From assembly GCF_963921235.1 (NCBI RefSeq), contig NC_086097.1, positions 78,804,001 through 78,868,000 on the forward strand: 64,000 nt of DNA, given 5' to 3'. The position numbers and the translations under genes were made by a program. Shown one piece after another: positions 8,795 to 28,522 of the stretch. Each line of letters begins with the position of its first letter. Position 1 is the first letter of the stretch. Origin of the DNA: Mobula hypostoma. Its lineage: Eukaryota. The notes below the pieces were generated by a model. It saw only the letters and a list, made by a program, of their open reading frames with translations, was not told the origin of the DNA and did no database searches.

Positions 8795-11451
8795 GTCACA
8801 AATTAGTGGGGCAGGCCTGATTATTAAAAGGGGCCACACAGGTAATCCATATTCTGGCGAGCTAGAGTATCTAAACTCTGGGGGCTGGCACAGTCAGTTA
8901 ACAGGACACCTTCCCTACGGTTGACTCCTGGCATGATGGTGGTCATGGATGAGCATCACATCCAAGAAGTCTCTTTCCAGAACCCAGCACTGTTCCTTGG
9001 GTCCGAATCCTTCTCAGTTTATGAGGAGTTACAGAAAACCCTGGACAGTTCAAGAAAGCAGAATTCTTTTTCCAGTGAAGACCTGTTACCCATCAACACA
9101 CTTGGGTTGCAGCGGGACTGATGGTGGTGAGGCTAAAAGACTGATTTTACAGGTTTTAATTTTGAAATGTGGAAGGTGGAATTGATCTTGAGGGTCTTGG
9201 GGAGCTGCAAGGTGTTAGCCACCGGGTTTACTTTTTTGAGACCTTGAAGGGTCCAATGAACTTGGGTGCCAACTTCCTGGACTCCACCCGGAGAGGCAAA
9301 TCCTGAGTAGATAGCCAGACCTGTTGCCCAGTCTGCAAAGCTGGTCCCTGTCTTCTCTTGCAGTTAGCCTTCATTTCAGCCTTCTGGGTAGAGGCCAGCA
9401 AAATCTCCCCTGCCCTGCTCCAAATTCCTTGTAGCGTCAGACAAGATCTTCAGCCCCAGGAACCCCAACCTCAGTCTCTTGCTCAAGGAAGAATGGCAGA
9501 GAATACCCAAAATGGCATTCAAACAGGGATATCCTGTGTGCAGAATGCCATAAAGTATTGTGGCGACCTCTATCCAAATCAGATGGTCTTTCTGAGGCCA
9601 GGCACTTTAAGGTTCATTCCATATCCCAGCTCACCCGCTCTGTCTGGCAGTTGGACTGCCGGTGAAACCCGGAGGGAAAACTTGCTGTTGTTCCAGTCAG
9701 TGTACAGAATGCCCTCCAAAAACGTGATGCAAATTGAGGACTACAATCTGACAAAATTTCCACTGAAAATCCATGGATCCTGAAGACCTTGTGCAGGACA
9801 ATTTTGGCTGTCTCTGCTGCAAATGGTAGTTTGTCCAATGCAATGAGTTTGTAGGCCTTCAAAAAACAATCTACAAATACCATGATGATGGTCTTCCCCT
9901 TGGAAGCTGGAAGACCCGTGACAAAGTCCATGGAGAGGTGCGCTTATGGTCTGTCTGGAACAGGTGAAGGAGCCCTTGAGATTGGGTGCAGGGCTCCTAG
10001 CTCTGGGCGCACACCTCGCATGCCTGCACGTATTGTAGGACCTTCCCTCGCCATTCCAGGCCACCGGTATCTTCTCTCGATGAACTTGAGGGCCCTGGCT
10101 ATCTCTGGGTGAGTGGTCATTCTTGATGCGTGTCCCCATTGAAGTACCTGAGATCTGATGGAACTTGGGATGAACAGACAACCAAGAGGATTGTTTTTGG
10201 GAATCTCCCCTTGCGCCTGGGCCTTGCGAACAAGTGCATTGATGCCCCAATGAAATGGCGCTATTACCTTACCTTGGGGAAAAACGGTGGCAGGCTGCTC
10301 TTTTCTTTTGGTTTTGTCAAACTGACGGGACATGATATCTGGTTTCTGATTCTTTGACCCTGGTCAATAGGTCAGGATGAAATTGAAGTGTTTAAATAAA
10401 AGAGACCACCTGGCCTGCCTGGAATTCAGTCTTTTAGCCTTCTGAACATAAGTCAGGTTGTTGTGGTCTTGGCCCCCTCAAGCCAGTGACGCCATTCCTC
10501 CAAAGCCAGCTTGACCTCAAGCAGCTCTCTATTGCCAACGTTGTAGTTCACCGCTGGCAGGTGTTAGCCGCCTGGAGAAGAATGCACATGAATGCAGTTT
10601 ATTGTCCAAAGGTGTCCGTTGAGACAACACTACACCCACTCTGATGTCCGAGGTGTCCAACTCTACGATGAAGAGAAGTTAGGTGAAACCAAAATGGGAG
10701 CTGTTGTAAACCACTGTTTGAGTTCTGCGAAAGCACCCTCCACTTCAGTAGACCAAACCAAGGGCCCATTGATCTCTGAGTTAGTGCTGTCAGTGGAGTC
10801 ACCGCTCAGCTGAAGTTCCTGATGAACTTTCTGTAAAAGTTGGCAAATCCCAGGAATCATTGGCCTTGTTCCATATTGGATGGCTGTGGCCAGTCTTTGA
10901 CTGCTTGTGCCTTAGTGGGGTCCATCTTGAGATTGCCATGAGAGATGATAAAACCCAAAAATGAAATGATGTTTTTGTGAAATTCAGATTTCTTCAACTT
11001 GATATAAAGTCAGTGATCTAGAAGCCTCTTTAAGGTATTTCTGACGAGGACTTGAGAAGATTTGGATATTATCCGAGTAGACAAAGGCATACTTATGGAG
11101 AGCATCTGGATCACATCATTTATGAACCCTAAAAAACTGCTCTCACGTTCTCAAGGCCAAAGGGCATGACCAGGTACTCAGAGTCCCCTGTTGGTGTGTT
11201 GAATGCAGTATTCCACTCGTTGCCCTCCTTTATGAGGACCAGATTGTACACACTCCACAAGCTTCGAGAATACTCTTGCCCCTTGGAGAATCTTGGAAGC
11301 AGTGTTCATGAGTGGAAGGAGTTTAAGATTTTTGACTGTTATGCGATTCAGCCCAATATAATCAACACATGGCCACAGGCTCCTGTCCTTTTTCTATATA
11401 AAAAAGAAGCCTGCGCCAGTGAGTGAGGTGGAGGGCTGAAGAACCCCATGG

Positions 11452-12494
11452 CAAGAGCCCCCTTTACCTACTCCTCTATAGCACTTCCCCCTGGGCCTAA
11501 TCAACCCCGTGGAGGACAAGGGCCCCCTTTACGTACTCCTCTATAGCACTTCCCCCTGGGCCTAATCAACCCCGTGGAGGACAAGGGCCCCCTTTACGTA
11601 CTCCTCTATAGCACTTCCCCCTGGGCCTAGTCAACCCCACGGAGGACAAGAGCCCCCTTTACGTACTCCTCTATAGCACTTCCCCCTGGGCCTAGTCAAC
11701 CCCGCGGAGGACAAGAGCCCCCTTTACGTACTCCTCTATAGCACTTCCCCCTGGGCCTAGTCAACCCCGCGGAGGACAAGGTCCCCCTTTACCTAGTCCT
11801 CTATAGCACTTCCCCCTGGGCCTAGTCAACCCCGCGGAGGACAAGAGCCCCCTTTACGTACTCCTCTATAGCACTTCCCCCTGGGCCTAGTCAACCCCGC
11901 GGAGGACAAGAGCCCCCTTTACGTACTCCTCTATAGCACTTCCCCCTGGGCCTAGTCAACCCCGCGGAGGACAAGGTCCCCCTTTACCTAGTCCTCTATA
12001 GCACTTCCCCCTGGGCCTAGTCAACCCCGCGGAGGACAAGGGCCCCCTTTACCTACTCCTCTATAGCACTTCCCCCTGGGCCTAGTCAACCCCGCGGAGG
12101 ACAAGAGCCCCCTTTACCTACTCCTCTATAGCACTTCCCCCTGGGCCTAGTCAACCCCGCGGAGGACAAGGCCCCCTTTACCTACTCCTCTATAGCACTT
12201 CCCCCTGGGCCTAGTCAACCCCGCGGAGGACAAGAGCCCCCTTTACCTACTCCTCTATAGCACTTCCCCCTGGGCCTAGTCAACCCCGCGGAGGACAAGA
12301 GCCCCCTTTACCTACTCCTCTATAGCACTTCCCCCTGGGCCTAGTCAACCCCGCGGAGGACAAGAGCCCCCTTTACCTACTCCTCTATAGCACTTCCCCC
12401 TGGGCCTAGTCAACCCCGCGGAGGACAAGAGCCCCCTTTACCTACTCCTCTATAGCACTTCCCCCTGGGCCTAATCAACCCCGTGGAGGACAAG
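11452..12494. repeat. Tandem array, 16 copies of a 65-bp unit (one copy 64 bp)
   Basis: Unit caagagccccctttacctactcctctatagcacttccccctgggcctagtcaaccccgcggagga, head to tail with no spacers. Confidence 0.97.
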
Positions 12495-22199: not shown

Positions 22200-23385
22200 T
22201 TGAAAGGTAGAGCATAAAATGGCAAGTGCTAGCAGTAGCCAGAGGGCTTGGAAATTTCTTAGATCCAATGGTGAATTGATTTTGGGGGAATACTTGTATG
22301 TAATATCAAAGCAAACAGTAAAAGTTTCTACAGATTTGAAAAAAGGAAGGCAGTGGTTATGGTTGGTGTAATACGTCTACTGAACAAGATTGGTGAATTA
22401 ATAACAGGGTCAAGGAAACAGCAGATGTGTTAATCAATATTTTGCATTAGACCTCACTGTGGAGAACATTGCAAATACTTCTAAAATAACAGATGGGCTA
22501 CTTTAAAGTAACAGGAAGAAACTTTAAAATATCTGAATTGCAAGGGGTAAAGTATTGGAGAATCTCATATGAGGCCAAAGATGACAAATTGCTAGGATCC
22601 TATGGCTTGTACCCAATGGTTTTAAAGAAAGTACTGCATATATAGTGAATCCATTGGTTGAAATTGATCAAAACTCACTGAATTCAGGGATGGGTGGAAG
22701 GTGGAAAATACCTAATGTCAATCCCTTGTTCAAAAAGAGAGGAATGCAGAAGACAGGGAATTATCGACCAGTTAATTTAAAATATCTTAGGGGTAAGATA
22801 CTAGAGTTAATAATTAAAGAGAAAATTACCAATCACATCACTAAGTCAACATGGTTTTATGGAAGGTAAATCACATTTGACATACTTACTCAACTTCTTT
22901 GAAGATGTGACAGGGAAAGTTGATAAGAGAGGAATTAGTTGATGTAATTTATTTAAATTACCAAAAGATATATACCAAAGTGCCACTTGAGAAGCAGGTG
23001 TCTAAATTACGGGCCAGAGTAGTAGAGGAATTTGCATGTATGGAAAGCTGATGTCACATAGAAAACATAGAGCTGGGGAAAATAAATTATCTTATTCAGG
23101 GTGGAGCATGTGCTGTGATTCGTGCTGTGCCCCAGGGATTGGCTCTCTGTCCTCAGTTGTTTATCATTAATGGTCATGATGAAGGGATGGAGCGAAATGT
23201 AAGATTTCCAAGTTTCCCAATGATATGAAAATAGGTGAAAGGGCATGTTGTGAGGAGGCCAAGGAGGCCACTGTGATTCTGCAGCAGGATGCAAATAGTT
23301 TAAATGATTGGGTGAAACCCTGGCAAGTAGATTTTAATGTGGTGAAGTGTGAGGTCATGAACTTTGGTAGGAGGAATCAGAGCTG
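22200..23385 (+). mobile_element. Degenerate CR1 RT fragment
   Basis: WKIPNVNPLFKKRGMQKTGNYRPVNL (22645..22869); WQVDFNVVKCEVMNFGRRN (23225..). Confidence 0.8.
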
Positions 23386-23389
23386 TCTA

Positions 23390-23885
23390 GATACACAAGC
23401 CTGGGAAGGACAATATGGAGAGCAAGCTGTTGCCCATGTAGCAAGCTCCCCCTCTCTATGCATTTGATGAACGCACAGGAACGGCAGAGACCAATACAGC
23501 TTGGTACCAGCAGTGTCACAGGAGTTGCCAGTCGGCACTGAACTCAATGTAGGACTGCCTTAGGGACTCCAGCTCCAGCATTCCCCACCCCCACAGGGTT
23601 TACTTCCGAAACCTTCCCCACAAGCGGATAGAGCCACAAGCAGCAAAGTTTTGAGATCGGATTTTTCCTTCTCCTAGATGAGCTACCAACCACGGCTGAT
23701 GAGCCCCATCTGCCGAAAGCGATTGGTCTTAAGACATCATTAACCCGCTTTTGCCCATTTTCCTGTCAGTAGTTCCACCAGGCTTAGTAGCCAAGACACA
23801 TGTGAAGGCCAGGAGCTGGACTTAGTTGTCAGAGGTTATTTGAGACACACACCATTGGGAGCATTTGATAGGTAGTGGGAGCTTG
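23390..23885 (-). mobile_element. RTE-clade 5'-UTR-derived element, split by the L1; remainder at 26860-26915
   Basis: Homologous to 60110-60290 (actccagctcc..gggtttac..ccgaa..cttcccc); continues across the L1 through the TSD. Confidence 0.6.
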
Positions 23886-26859
23886 AGACTTCCGGTAGCG
23901 CTCATGGAGTGAAGTCGCGTTCTTGACTCGCTCCATTACCTCTGAGTTTTTTTTCTCTATGGTCAGCTATACTTTAATTAACCATTAAGGCATCAACTCT
24001 TACAATACTTTGAATTAAACTGAATTCTCCGACAACTGGATGGAACTTAGATCTGCTATGTCTAAGAACGAGAAAGACGGCAAGGATGGTAAACCTCCGG
24101 TTAAACCGAAAGCTACGGATCTCCCTCCGACTGAATCACCGGTGACTTTGAAAGCGATATCGGAGTTAATTCAGAGGGAAATCTCAACCTCTGTTAGGGA
24201 GATGATTCGTGCGGAAATTGCAGGCCCTGTTAAAGACCTGATTCATACGGAAATCTCAACTAATTTCCAGAAAATTGCCGCTTTAATTGATAAGATGCAA
24301 ACATGTATTGCGGAACATCAGTCGGCTATATCTGATCTTCAAAAATTCGCGCAACAAAGTGAGCTTAAGATGGGGAAAATCGAAGAAACAATTAATGTAA
24401 TGAAGAAGAAACTTGACTTTTTGACTTTTAAAAACTCTGACTTGGAATCTAGAATGCGACGGCAGAATTTACGAATGATTGGCGTGAGGGAAGCCGCTGA
24501 AGGTAACAACCCCATGAAATATTTCTCCCAACTTTTAAAAGATGCATTCCCTACTGTATTTCCTGACCAACCACCGCTACTGGATCGTGTTCACAGAACC
24601 CCATCATACTCGTCTAGGTCAGATAGACCTCGGCATGTTATCTTACGTTTTCATTACTTTCAAGACAAGGAGAGACTGTTTCGATTCGCTCGATCTAAAG
24701 GTTTCATTGATTTTTCGGATCTTAAGTTCCGATTCGTGGAAGATTTCAGTAAACCAATCTGGGACCAACGGGTCCGTTACAGATCCGTGATGTCGGAATT
24801 CTATAAGATGGATTTAAGACCAGCGCTGCTGTACCCTGCACGTCTAAGGATTCGCATGGCAGATGGAGCCCTTCGTTTTTTTGATTCTCCATCGGATGCC
24901 CAGAGTTATCTGGATCAACTTTCATCTCCAACATCTTAATTGCTTTCTTTTTAATTTTCTCCGTCGATCGGAGGCTGTGAATTGGTTGGTTTTAACTTTT
25001 CTGTGCCCTATTTGGGCAGAAAAGTTTACTTTCGATTTCTTAATATGGCTACTAAACTTTCTTTTTAACTGCGTCATTTCTTTCTTTTCCCAGGGGATTC
25101 TGGGTGGTTACTTCCCTTTTGTCATCTTACGTATTTCCTGTGCGGCCTTAAATTTTGTAGTTTTTGTTTAAATTTTATTTTGTTTTGCTTTTTATAATCA
25201 CTTTATGTTAATAATCCTATTTTTTTTTTTGTTGCTGTGTCTATTCATGAGTTTGAGGTTTATTGTGGTTTTTTTAAATATATATTTTCCGGCTTTTGAT
25301 CTGTTCTGTGTGTATTCTAATTGAGTTAACTTTTTTTTACTTATTTTTTTACTGTTTTACAATTAGCTGATCCTTTTCATATTTATACCTTTTTTTTAGG
25401 GAGCGTATACCGGAAGTCATGGGGGTAGTTTTAGCGCTTGCTTCTTTCTGGCGGGTCTGCTTTAGATTTTGCCTTGGGGTCTTGGGCTGGGGGGTGGCGG
25501 GAGGGGCTTCACGTTTTAGTTTGTTTTTCTTTGGGCTATATACATTATTGAAGTACTGGTTGCGTCCTTTTCCCCGGTATCTTTTGTATGTTCTGTTTCC
25601 TCTCCGGGTTTGTGGGTCGCGCCTATTGTCAATCCTCCTCGTCGTGGGTTGACTTTAGGATTTATGGAGTCTATTATTAATTTTGTCTCCTGGAATACTA
25701 ATGGTCTTAATCATCCTATTAAAAGAAAAAAAGTTTTTAAAGTGTTCCGGAGACTTAAAGCACAAATTTTATTTTTACAAGAGACCCATGTACGGAGGGG
25801 GGACAGACTACGTTTTTTCAAATTCTGGAAGGGACAACAATTTCATTCGAACTCCAATGCTAAGATTCGAGGCGTCTCTATTTTTATAGATTCCTCAGTT
25901 ACTTTTATACAACAGGATATTATCTCTGATCCGAATGGTAGATTTTTATTGGTTAGTGGTTTACTATTTAATAAAAAAGTAGTTTTGGTTAATGTTTATG
26001 CTCCTAATATGGATTGTCCGGAATTTTATAAATCATTGTTTGATCAGTTTCCGAATTTGAACGAGTTTTCATTGATTTGGGGCGGAGATCTTAATACCTG
26101 TTTATCTCCAGCTTTGGACCGTTCGGCTCCTTTACGGACTTTACCTAATAAATCTGCAAATTTGATTAATTTTTTCCTTTCTGATTCTGGGTCGACGGAT
26201 ATTTGGCGTTTTCTGCATCCTCAGGAAAAAGATTTTTCCTTTTTTTCACATGTTCATCATTCCTATTCAAGAATTGATTATTTTTTTATTGATTCTCGTC
26301 TCATTCCTTCAGTGATTAAATGTGATTATGATTCTATAACCATTTCGGATCATGCTCCACTTAAGCTTTCTATTAAAATTATGGCCAATATACCAAACAA
26401 TAGACAATGGCGTTTTAATTCGCTGTTGCTTCAGGACTCGGACTTTGTTAATTTTATGAATGAACAGATTGAGCTTTTTTTTATAATTAACCATACAGAA
26501 GATATTTCGGTTAACACTCTTTGGGACACTTTTAAAGCCTATATTCAGGGTCAGATTATTTCGTATTCCGTTGCTTTGAGGAAGAAACAGAAGCAGGAGG
26601 AGATGGCAATTGTGGACAAGATTAAAGAAATTGATAAGAAATATGTTATGGCTCCTTCTGAGGAGCTATACAAACAAAGAACTGAACTTCAAATGGAACA
26701 CAGTTTACTACTCTCGTCCTCGATTGTAAACCAATTAAAGAAAACAAGAAGTGATTTTTATGTTCACAGTGATAAAATTGGCAAGCTGCTGGCTAATCAA
26801 TTGAAATCTAATTATGTTAAATCTCAAATCAATCAGATTTATAACCAAAATGATCGATT
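23886..26859 (+). mobile_element. L1-clade LINE, 5'-complete, 3'-truncated in ORF2, 15-bp TSD
   Basis: Starts AGACTTCCGG; intact ORF1, T-rich spacer, intact endonuclease; ggtagtgggagcttg at both 23871-23885 and 26860-26874. Confidence 0.95.
24040..24939 (+). CDS. L1 ORF1p (coiled coil + RRM + CTD), 299 aa, uninterrupted
   Basis: DLESRMRRQNLRMIGVRE, LDRVHR, RPRHVILRF, LLYPARLRI motifs. Confidence 0.92.
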   Translation: MELRSAMSKNEKDGKDGKPPVKPKATDLPPTESPVTLKAISELIQREISTSVREMIRAEIAGPVKDLIHTEISTNFQKIAALIDKMQTCIAEHQSAISDLQKFAQQSELKMGKIEETINVMKKKLDFLTFKNSDLESRMRRQNLRMIGVREAAEGNNPMKYFSQLLKDAFPTVFPDQPPLLDRVHRTPSYSSRSDRPRHVILRFHYFQDKERLFRFARSKGFIDFSDLKFRFVEDFSKPIWDQRVRYRSVMSEFYKMDLRPALLYPARLRIRMADGALRFFDSPSDAQSYLDQLSSPTS

Positions 26860-26899
26860 GGTAGTGGGAGCTTGTCCCCATTACCACTCCCATCTATAA
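25664..26899 (+). CDS. L1 ORF2 N-terminal part: intact APE endonuclease, no RT; reads through the TSD to a stop in the flank
   Basis: VSWNTNGL, LQETH, NVYAPN, GGDLN, YSRIDYFF, SDHAP, WRFN motifs; likely ATG at 25664. Confidence 0.88.
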   Translation: MESIINFVSWNTNGLNHPIKRKKVFKVFRRLKAQILFLQETHVRRGDRLRFFKFWKGQQFHSNSNAKIRGVSIFIDSSVTFIQQDIISDPNGRFLLVSGLLFNKKVVLVNVYAPNMDCPEFYKSLFDQFPNLNEFSLIWGGDLNTCLSPALDRSAPLRTLPNKSANLINFFLSDSGSTDIWRFLHPQEKDFSFFSHVHHSYSRIDYFFIDSRLIPSVIKCDYDSITISDHAPLKLSIKIMANIPNNRQWRFNSLLLQDSDFVNFMNEQIELFFIINHTEDISVNTLWDTFKAYIQGQIISYSVALRKKQKQEEMAIVDKIKEIDKKYVMAPSEELYKQRTELQMEHSLLLSSSIVNQLKKTRSDFYVHSDKIGKLLANQLKSNYVKSQINQIYNQNDRLVVGACPHYHSHL

Positions 26900-27166
26900 C
26901 AACCTTAAGGAACCATATCAAGGTAGTGTTAAATGACTTCGCCACACCCAAGTTTTACAAAGCCCATCCAATTTCTAATGTCATTTATGATAAAGTAGCC
27001 AGTGAGCTAGGTCACATGGATGCTGAAGGAATTCTTTCCAAGGTTGAGTAGAACCCATGCCAGTTTAATTGTCATTTGACCATTCATGAATACAGCCAAA
27101 CGAAACAGCATTACTCCAGGGCCAAAGTGAAACACACAATACCAACAGTCACACACAGCACAAAGC

Positions 27167-28522
27167 CAGTTGAAAGAAAAAGTTTGTGAACCCTTTTCAA
27201 TTAGACTTGATTGAACTTGCATATTGGCACGGAGGAATTTTAGACCATTCCTCTATATAAAACCATTTCACAGTTCATCAATATTTCTGGGATACCCTAC
27301 ATGAACAATCCTCTTCAGGTCAAGCATCTCTGTTGGGTTAAGGTCTGGACTCTGATCTGGCCATTCCAAAAGATTAATTTTCTTCTTTTTAAACCATTCC
27401 GTTGTTGATTTACTCTTGTGTTTTGGATCATTGACTTGTTGCGTCATTCAACTTCTATCAAACTTTCAGGTGATGAAACATTACCCTGACATTCCCCTGG
27501 AAGATGTCTTGATACATTTTTGAATTAATTGTTCCCTCAATGATTGTAAGCTGCCCAGGCCCTGCGGCACTGGAACAGTTCCAAACCATGATGCTCCGCC
27601 CACCATGCTTCACAGTTGGGATGAGGTTTTGGTGTTGGTGTGCAGCGGCCTTTACCCTTCAAACATAACAGTGTGCATTTCTGCCAAAAAGCTCAACTTT
27701 TGTTTCATCTGTTCACGGAACATTGCCCCAGGAGCATTGTGAAACATCCAGTTGGCCTTTTACAAACTTGAGACATGCAGCAATGTTTTTTTTTCTGGAG
27801 AGCAGTGGTTTCCTCCACGGTGTCCTGCCATGAGCACCATTGTTGTTCACTGTTTTTCTTATAGTTGTCACATGAACAGAGACTTCAGCAAGTTCTAGAG
27901 ATTTCTGCAGGTCTTTTGCTGTTACCCTTGGGTTCTTTTTCACCTCCTTCAGCATTGCACATTTTGGTCTTGGTGTGAAATAGGCAGGATGTCCGCTCCT
28001 GGGAACAATGGCAAGAGTACTGAGTTCCCTCCAATCTCTCTCACTGTGGATTAATGAACATTCAAGTCTTTAGAAATGCTTTTGTAGCCTTTCCCAGCTT
28101 CATACATCTCTACAATTCTTCTTCCTAGGTCCTCTGAAAGTTGTTTTGACTGAGGCATGGTGCACATAAACAGATCTTTCTTGAAAAGGACTGGCTCTGT
28201 CAGTAACCTGACTTTGTGTGTCCTTTTTGTAGGGCAGGACACCTCTGCAAGCCACACCTCCAATCTCATCTCATTGATTGGAACACCCGACTCCAAGTAG
28301 CTTTACCCCAGAGGTTCACATACCTTTTTGAACCCAGACTGTGATGGCTTAAATGGTGTACTCAGTATTGACAAGAAGAAGTATAATTGTTTTTGTATTA
28401 TTAGTTTAGATAAATTGTGTTAGTCCAATATTGTGATTTAGATGATTAGATCACATTTTATGAATAATTAATGCAGAGAACCAGTTGATTGCAAAGTGAT
28501 CACAAACTTTTTCCTGCATCTG
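27167..28522 (-). mobile_element. Tc1-family DNA transposon with pseudogenised transposase
   Basis: Ends CAGTTGAAAGAAAAAGTTTGTGAACCC / revcomp CAGATGCAGGAAAAAGTTTGTGATCAC; ATG at 28158 (MPQSKQLSEDL...GKGYKSISK); KNPRVTAKDL; WPDQSPDLNP motif near 27335-27365. Confidence 0.9.

What the first reader, a model, noticed from the sequence alone, without database searches (positions are those of the whole stretch)
23871..26874. 5'-complete L1 cut off inside ORF2, with no poly(A) but a perfect 15-bp TSD
Seen: the element starts at its apparent 5' end (AGACTTCCGG) and stops at ...tgatcgatt, directly abutting the second ggtagtgggagcttg. The interrupted RTE-like host rejoins seamlessly across the TSD. 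Established: target-primed reverse transcription normally gives 3'-intact, 5'-truncated, A-tailed copies. Inference: this copy arose by internal priming on the RNA or from a broken transcript, since a later deletion would be unlikely to end exactly at the TSD. The target is G-rich, not the TTTT/AA site used by mammalian L1.
Basis: partly seen in the sequence, partly recalled or inferred. Interest (0 to 1): 0.7.

Follow-up and report, generated by a model that had tools for sequence, protein, structure and literature searches.

The report
Tailless half-length L1 in a ray
A young jumping-gene (L1) copy in a ray-like fish genome holds only the front half of the element, has no poly(A) tail, and sits between a perfect target duplication, most likely because copying began in the middle of its RNA, a rare route already known from mammals.

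Summary
An exact 15-bp duplication (23871-23885, 26860-26874) brackets 2,974 bp of L1: 5' end, open ORF1, spacer and ORF2 to codon 398 of about 1,260, with no tail. Distant fish L1s begin with a similar motif, so the 5' end looks complete. Other copies of the host repeat run straight across the site. The copy looks young: both frames are open and it carries letters typical of a lineage-specific expansion. Best reading: target-primed insertion started inside the L1 RNA (about 55%); rivals are a broken RNA template (22%) and a later deletion (15%). The two decisive tests could not be run: no family DNA beyond 26859 was obtained, and no read spanning the junction or orthologous empty site was displayed. 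The class is known: 5'-complete, 3'-truncated, TSD-flanked L1s are counted in human (90 versus 708 full-length, PMC5322556). New details: the host probably runs on the minus strand, and the duplication begins at the base of a hairpin in it (z -1.3, unproven).

The parts
23871..23885 (+). left copy of the 15-bp target-site duplication
   Evidence: exact match to 26860-26874, only two occurrences in the window
23886..24039 (+). L1 5' UTR, starting AGACTTCCGG
   Evidence: 3 of the 5 distant fish L1 loci that had ORF1 and upstream DNA inspected (L007, L002, L001) begin with a similar motif about 130-150 nt before an ATG
24040..24939 (+). L1 ORF1, open, 299 codons from the first ATG (second ATG at 24058)
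   Evidence: PF02994 E 1.7e-10; no stop
24940..25663 (+). long T-rich inter-ORF spacer; holds an inverted copy of the 5'-end motif near 25408-25418
25664..26859 (+). L1 ORF2, endonuclease domain and linker, cut in codon 399, before the reverse transcriptase; the frame runs on through the TSD to a stop at 26897-26899
   Evidence: PF03372 E 6.3e-14; relatives continue about 865 aa
26860..26874 (+). right copy of the target-site duplication, directly after the last L1 base, no A-tail
26860..26885 (.). inverted repeat in the pre-insertion target: the stem starts at the first TSD base and the TSD ends near the end of the loop
   Evidence: DNA fold -5.6 kcal/mol, z -1.3 against 300 shuffles; only such 10-bp stem in the 546-bp host
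23381..23885 (-). host short retroelement, larger piece; the family continues beyond 23381 but this copy stops there
   Evidence: loose ends before 23381 with one consensus (agreement about 0.7) in all four runs; HDV-ribozyme-like core on the minus strand by a recalled motif
26875..26915 (-). host short retroelement, 41-bp end piece; 26915 is a terminus shared by many copies, probably the 5' end
   Evidence: 226-248 loose ends behind 26915 with unrelated A-rich letters (agreement 0.38) in three of four runs listed

Best explanation
A full-length L1 RNA, bound to its own ORF2 protein, was reverse-transcribed at a pair of staggered nicks 15 bp apart inside an older short retroelement. [quoted passage not shown] Second-strand synthesis then gave an ordinary TSD. 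The product is a dead, tailless, 5'-complete half element. Shown: structure, TSD, open frames, L1 identity. Inferred: priming inside an intact RNA, the microhomology, the source of the nicks.
For: Exact TSD flush with both L1 ends; 15 bp lies in the commonest range, 13-15 bp, for mammalian and zebrafish L1 and above the 10-12 bp mode of RTE (PMC6007223 passage citing Ichiyanagi and Okada 2008). No extra or A bases at the 3' junction. Young copy, so little time for a second event: no stops in 299 + 398 codons; at 9 of the 26 displayed variant rows inside the L1 the window letter is the majority in organism A and absent from three or more contigs of relative B, whose flank differs by only 13 of 805 bases. 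Weak hint of microhomology: the break splits a Leu codon that the first TSD base completes, and the TSD reads V in register with L-T-V-[D/N] in the 4 closest relatives (63-73% identity); 2.6% of host positions would do this by chance. Class precedent: 90 5'-complete 3'-truncated TSD-flanked L1 against 708 full-length in human under relaxed screening (PMC5322556); human ORF2p extends 5-nt primers and tolerates mismatches (PMC10830420 passages).
Against: The family's DNA past 26859 was not obtained, so microhomology is unproven; among all 123 homologues aligned at the break only 10 have V at that position and the test was chosen after seeing the data. Described internal priming is mostly at A-rich RNA sites (PMC4859970, PMC5322556 passages); this site is G-rich. 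No contig spanning the 26859/26860 junction was displayed. The age argument is weakened because contigs drop rare letters: even organism A shows none of the window letter at 24503 and 24599, and relative B keeps single-copy-like depth (51.5) of the window letter at 26587 and 26589. Microhomology would also fit a later deletion.
Confidence: 0.55

Rival explanations
1. The template was an already broken or cut L1 RNA ending at 26859, joined to the nicked target by end-to-end template capture, in cis after cleavage inside the particle or in trans by another LINE's protein. Same final structure, no pairing needed.
For: Clean junction with at most a short overlap; ORF2p performs template jumping in vitro (PMC10830420 passages); G-rich site unlike described A-rich internal priming.
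Against: Noll et al. looked for cut-RNA intermediates of tailless 5S and U2 copies and found none, preferring internal priming (PMC5322556 section 16). The in-register Leu/Val match hints at pairing.
Confidence: 0.22
2. A normal full-length, A-tailed L1 inserted first; a later deletion of about 3 kb removed the rest of ORF2, the 3' UTR and the tail, ending at or a few bases into the right TSD, perhaps guided by microhomology.
For: The duplication extends to 18 of 19 bases, so the original TSD may have been longer and the end point need not be exact. The family is very abundant (summed contig depth about 10,000-20,000 times the single-copy depth; not a copy number), so rare events will be seen. 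The host copy itself seems to have lost one end without a TSD. PMC12350158 (passage) notes that non-canonical insertions may be later structural variants.
Against: The end point must fall within a few bases at the tail/TSD border out of kilobases (my rough estimate: a few in 1,000 per such deletion); the copy appears young; both TSD copies are identical.
Confidence: 0.15
3. The copy descends from a non-autonomous half-L1 master that always ends at 26859 (a HAL1-like family with the endonuclease but no reverse transcriptase).
For: L1 depth stays high up to the last bin before the break; HAL1 elements exist in mammals (PMC5322556 passage).
Against: HAL1 copies carry a poly(A) tail and encode ORF1 only (same passage); this has no tail and breaks in mid-codon; table 6 lists no place where many molecules end (contigs, weak).
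Confidence: 0.04
4. Assembly error: a full-length copy was collapsed or mis-joined.
For: No displayed contig bridges the junction.
Against: L1 interior and TSD share no long sequence that an assembler could confuse; the join restores the host exactly; earlier notes place this window more than 77 Mb into one piece, which suggests a long-read assembly (inference).
Confidence: 0.04

Closest known systems
Internally primed (IP) L1 and Alu insertions of hominins (Srikanta et al. 2009, Gene 448:233; not held, seen only as cited in PMC5402677 and PMC4859970)
   Same: 3'-truncated, no poly(A), flanked by a TSD, canonical endonuclease site may be absent.
   Different: Here in a cartilaginous fish; priming site is G-rich, whereas PMC4859970 describes pairing with internal A-rich RNA.
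Tailless retropseudogenes, including 5'-complete 3'-truncated L1 (Noll et al. 2015, PMC5322556; abstract, sections 16 and 19 and passages read)
   Same: 5'-complete, 3'-truncated, tailless, TSD of 8-35 nt; this copy meets their structural filter as described in the methods passage.
   Different: Their vertebrate survey used 5S and U2 copies and found them only in therians and the anole; their consensus target is A-rich. I did not see the species list of their figure 6 or their supplements, so I do not know whether a cartilaginous fish was screened.
Endonuclease-independent / non-classical L1 insertions (Morrish 2002, Sen 2007; as described in PMC4859970 and PMC5402677 passages)
   Same: No tail, atypical target.
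   Different: Those are typically truncated at both ends and lack a TSD; this one is 5'-complete with an exact TSD.
Fish-type L1 families with a long inter-ORF spacer (PMC5381506 passages)
   Same: ORF1 with PF02994, long spacer, endonuclease-first ORF2; 40-50% identity to teleost-like L1 ORF2 and 70-73% to L1-derived stretches in Hypanus sabinus proteins.
   Different: Those end in AATAAA plus poly(A); this copy lacks the whole 3' half.
HAL1 (half-L1)
   Same: Front half of an L1 between TSDs.
   Different: HAL1 is a family with ORF1 only and a poly(A) tail; this has part of ORF2, no tail, and no evidence of being a family.

Membership tests
L1 clade LINE | ORF1 with L1 RNA-binding domain | tested here: met
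   PF02994, 41.5 bits against cut-off 22.4
L1 clade LINE | ORF2 starting with an APE-type endonuclease, homologous to EN-RT proteins of about 1,260 aa | tested here: met
   PF03372; 46 longer homologues, nearly all with PF00078
L1 clade LINE | reverse transcriptase, 3' UTR and poly(A) tail | tested here: not met
   absent from this copy; this is the truncation itself, so the copy is an L1-derived fragment, not an intact element
Tailless / internally primed insertion | 3' truncation without A-tail | tested here: met
Tailless / internally primed insertion | flanking TSD | tested here: met
   exact 15 bp
Tailless / internally primed insertion | complementarity between target and the RNA at the end point | tested here: inconclusive
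   only a protein-level hint; family DNA not obtained
Tailless / internally primed insertion | clean empty site in an allele or orthologue, no full-length allele | tested here: inconclusive
   paralogous host copies are uninterrupted; the orthologous contig of organism B ends 24 bases into the host, short of the site
Endonuclease-independent (non-classical) L1 insertion | no TSD, truncated at both ends | tested here: not met
   TSD present, 5' end apparently complete
HAL1 | ORF1 only, poly(A) tail | tested here: not met
   398 codons of ORF2 present, no tail
HAL1 | many copies with the same 3' end | not testable with these tools
   no genome held
RTE-derived short element (host) | 3' end shared with an RTE LINE | not testable with these tools
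   that end is missing from this copy; no coding remnant in six frames; no Rfam match
RTE-derived short element (host) | T-rich stretch upstream of insertion sites | tested here: inconclusive
   flanks beyond 26915 are A-rich on +, so T-rich on -, in line with PMC6007223 (abstract); could also be read as a tail

The most novel reading that the evidence does not exclude
This ray L1 family primes inside its own RNA at GC-rich, structure-selected targets as a regular route: the nicks fall at the stem base and loop end of a hairpin in the host element, no poly(A) pairing is needed, and tailless TSD-flanked half copies form a sizeable class. That would extend relaxed, tail-independent L1 priming to cartilaginous fish and point to hairpin-guided nicking by a non-mammalian L1 endonuclease.
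Probability: 0.12. Interest if true: 0.5.

Novelty: new member of a known kind. Interest (0 to 1): 0.22.

Why it matters
As a single copy it matters little: it is one dead insertion of a kind already counted in human. It would matter if a genome-wide count showed that tailless, TSD-flanked copies are common in this very abundant, young L1 family, because tail-independent priming has been documented mainly in therian mammals and a lizard, and a large young family would allow priming rules and target structure to be measured directly. Three literature searches that bore on this listed no paper on internally primed L1 in cartilaginous fish, but the library lacks most subscription journals, including the Ichiyanagi and Okada papers on fish L1 junctions.

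Tried and rejected
No whole genome was held, so other copies could not be counted. No second copy of the L1 or of the host lies in the window. Searches for close family members: three protein searches gave at best 73% identity (nothing), the representative search gave the same best hit among 427, metagenome contigs gave 39 loci at 26-58% identity over their best segments, prokaryote genomes only short endonuclease matches, viral contigs nothing; the window's own ORF1 and ORF2 sequences are not in the protein collection. A TSD search around 4 near-full-length fish relatives gave only short matches that do not flank the elements, so target preference of relatives was not measured. Laying contigs used loose settings (85% likeness, 1% share); the abundant host repeat filled the tables, and the loose ends at 26859, which would have given the family's continuation, were among the 6,518 rows not shown. 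The lack of a displayed junction contig is therefore no evidence either way. Rfam found nothing above chance in 23300-27100. Premature polyadenylation was rejected: no A-run at the junction. A mobile L1-head/host-end chimera was rejected: the left flank is the matching continuation of the same host with a 15-bp overlap. A 16- or 19-bp TSD with a purine-step nick was considered; it needs one later base change in a young copy, so 15 bp is preferred. Srikanta 2009 could not be read. No supplementary files were read; those of PMC5322556 may list species screened and L1 end points.

Full report
Observation. The 15-mer GGTAGTGGGAGCTTG occurs twice in the window, at 23871-23885 and 26860-26874, and extends by no exact base on either side; allowing one mismatch it reaches 19 bp. 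The 2,974 bp between the copies are an L1: a 154-bp leader starting AGACTTCCGG, ORF1 (24040-24939, PF02994), a 724-bp spacer and ORF2 from 25664 (PF03372). Neither frame has a stop before the break. ORF2 is cut in codon 399; most full-length homologues have about 860-870 further residues, which hold the reverse transcriptase. The last L1 base abuts the second TSD copy with no A-run.

Is the 5' end complete? Of the 21 longer-matching metagenome loci examined (21 of 39), I inspected DNA upstream of ORF1 in five; three (L007, L002, L001) start with a motif like the window's about 130-150 nt before an ATG, while L003 and L004 showed no clear match. With the motif directly after the left TSD, a complete 5' end is well supported, though not shown against the family's own consensus.

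Organism and family. The closest named homologues are L1-derived stretches in Hypanus sabinus proteins (70-73%), and earlier notes on this genome call it a ray; the taxon is an inference. Contigs of four public runs were laid on 22600-27900. In organism A single-copy flank depth is about 11, while summed depth over the L1 is about 10,000 times (5' half) to 20,000 times (ORF2) that value. The tool warns that this is no copy number; it does show a very abundant family with many copies reaching the 5' half.

Host. The interrupted repeat spans 23381-23885 plus 26875-26915. Contigs of paralogous copies in all four runs pass from 23884-23885 to about 26889-26894 with host letters between, so the uninterrupted form is the family norm. 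Many copies share a terminus at 26915 followed by unrelated A-rich flanks, while the family continues past 23381 where this copy stops. With an HDV-ribozyme-like core on the minus strand (recalled motif; no Rfam hit), an earlier unchecked note on a short element with such a ribozyme in its first 190 bases (e1-7813318), and the T-rich upstream signature of RTE-mobilised elements (PMC6007223, abstract), I read the host as a minus-strand RTE-type short element with its 5' end at 26915. The L1 then lies antisense, about 40-55 bp inside the host's 5' end. This is inference; RTE membership was not shown.

Age. Organism B has an orthologous left flank differing at 13 of 805 bases (record 17). Of 26 displayed variant rows inside the L1 (40 of 1,090 rows were shown in all, chosen by the tool), 25 are covered in B; at 14 B shows none of the window letter, at 12 of these the window letter is the majority in A, and 9 rest on three or more B contigs. 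The copy thus belongs to a subfamily that expanded in A, probably after the split. Against this: contigs drop rare letters (A itself shows none of the window letter at 24503 and 24599), the rows are selected, and B retains single-copy-like depth of the window letter at 26587 and 26589. B's contig ends 24 bases into the host, so the orthologous site was not seen.

Mechanism. In target-primed reverse transcription the start of the right TSD is the primer's complement, so internal priming predicts that the L1 RNA after 26859 resembles GGTAG.... I could not get that DNA: protein, metagenome, viral and prokaryote searches gave only distant relatives, and the relevant loose ends were not displayed. 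At protein level the four closest relatives read L-T-V-[D/N] where the read-through reads L-V-V-G: the first TSD base completes the split Leu codon and the Val is in register; 2.6% of host positions would fit by chance, but only 10 of 123 aligned homologues have that Val and the test is post hoc. This is a weak hint of imperfect pairing, and it fits a microhomology-guided deletion equally well. What favours insertion as is: an exact TSD flush with both ends, a length in the L1 mode of 13-15 bp (PMC6007223 passage), a young copy, and precedent for the class. Human ORF2p extends primers of 5 nt, tolerates mismatches and jumps templates (PMC10830420 passages), which allows both internal priming and capture of a broken RNA. 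I put internal priming at 0.55, broken RNA at 0.22, later deletion at 0.15, a half-L1 master at 0.04 and assembly error at 0.04.

Target. The site is not TT/AAAA. In the pre-insertion form the top strand folds into a 9-10-bp hairpin whose stem starts at the first TSD base, and the TSD ends near the end of the loop; it is the only such stem in the 546-bp host and among the strongest 1-2% of 30-mers in host and window, but z is only -1.3 against shuffles. The hairpin probably exists because the host encodes a structured RNA. Structure-guided nicking, or staggered breaks made by another nuclease, is a lead from one site only. A non-canonical site is reported for internally primed insertions (PMC5402677 passage). 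That fish L1 endonucleases are less strict than mammalian ones is my recollection of Ichiyanagi et al.; I could not read those papers, and one search shows only that they form separate groups.

Comparison with what is known. Noll et al. 2015 (PMC5322556; abstract, sections 16 and 19, passages) count 708 full-length, 90 3'-truncated and 5,593 doubly truncated TSD-flanked L1 in human under relaxed screening and favour internal priming; tailless 5S and U2 copies were found only in therians and anole. Internal priming of L1 and Alu is reviewed in PMC4859970 (passages). Among polymorphic human insertions 5,523 of about 35,000 are non-canonical, 1,901 of them 3'-truncated, and the authors allow later structural change as a cause (PMC12350158 passage). 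Tailless copies show short 3' microhomologies (PMC2912911 passages). The copy meets the structural definition of this class, fails that of endonuclease-independent insertions (it has a TSD and a 5' end) and fails that of HAL1. Papers not named here were seen as search listings only; PMC3747384, PMC5381506, PMC6765202 and PMC9237045 as passages. Look-ups in the scan's own notes by sequence and by words found no earlier report of this feature.

Verdict. A real and clean example of a tailless, 5'-complete L1 insertion in a cartilaginous fish: a new member of a known kind, probably made by priming inside the RNA, with the decisive checks still open. Interest 0.22; up to 0.5 if a genome-wide count shows a regular, hairpin-guided route.

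Noticed in passing
window 25396-25424 versus 23886-23910: The inter-ORF spacer holds an inverted copy of the L1 5'-end motif (11 bp exact, about 17 with one small indel); it could be an antisense promoter-like site or a long-range RNA pairing. None of 21 distant fish loci showed the motif in the spacer.
   Followed up: partly
The L1 insertion splits the leader.
   Followed up: partly
window 23381: The host copy stops here while its family continues, with no TSD around the host; organism C's orthologous contig leaves the window sequence at 23383 into 368 unlike letters. Looks like an older deletion or a host insertion with loss of target DNA.
   Followed up: no
window 23249-23257: In run X1 a single-copy contig follows the window to 23257 and then goes on for 1,179 letters with no further piece listed; in X2 the contig ends at 23249. 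Possibly a second haplotype with an insertion or deletion here.
   Followed up: no
window 25664-26899: The cut ORF2 reads through the TSD to a stop after 411 codons, so the copy could still encode ORF1 and an endonuclease-only protein.
   Followed up: no
window about 27200-28300, minus strand: Tc1/mariner-type transposon remnant (PF01498; Sleeping Beauty HTH below cut-off).
   Followed up: no
window 11442-12494: Tandem array of a 65-bp unit, about 16 copies, 94-97% alike.
   Followed up: no
proteins P0033 and P0047: Two Hypanus sabinus RefSeq proteins named IQCB1 and E3D isoforms consist of L1 ORF2 sequence over the stretches aligned, probably gene models that absorbed an L1.
   Followed up: no
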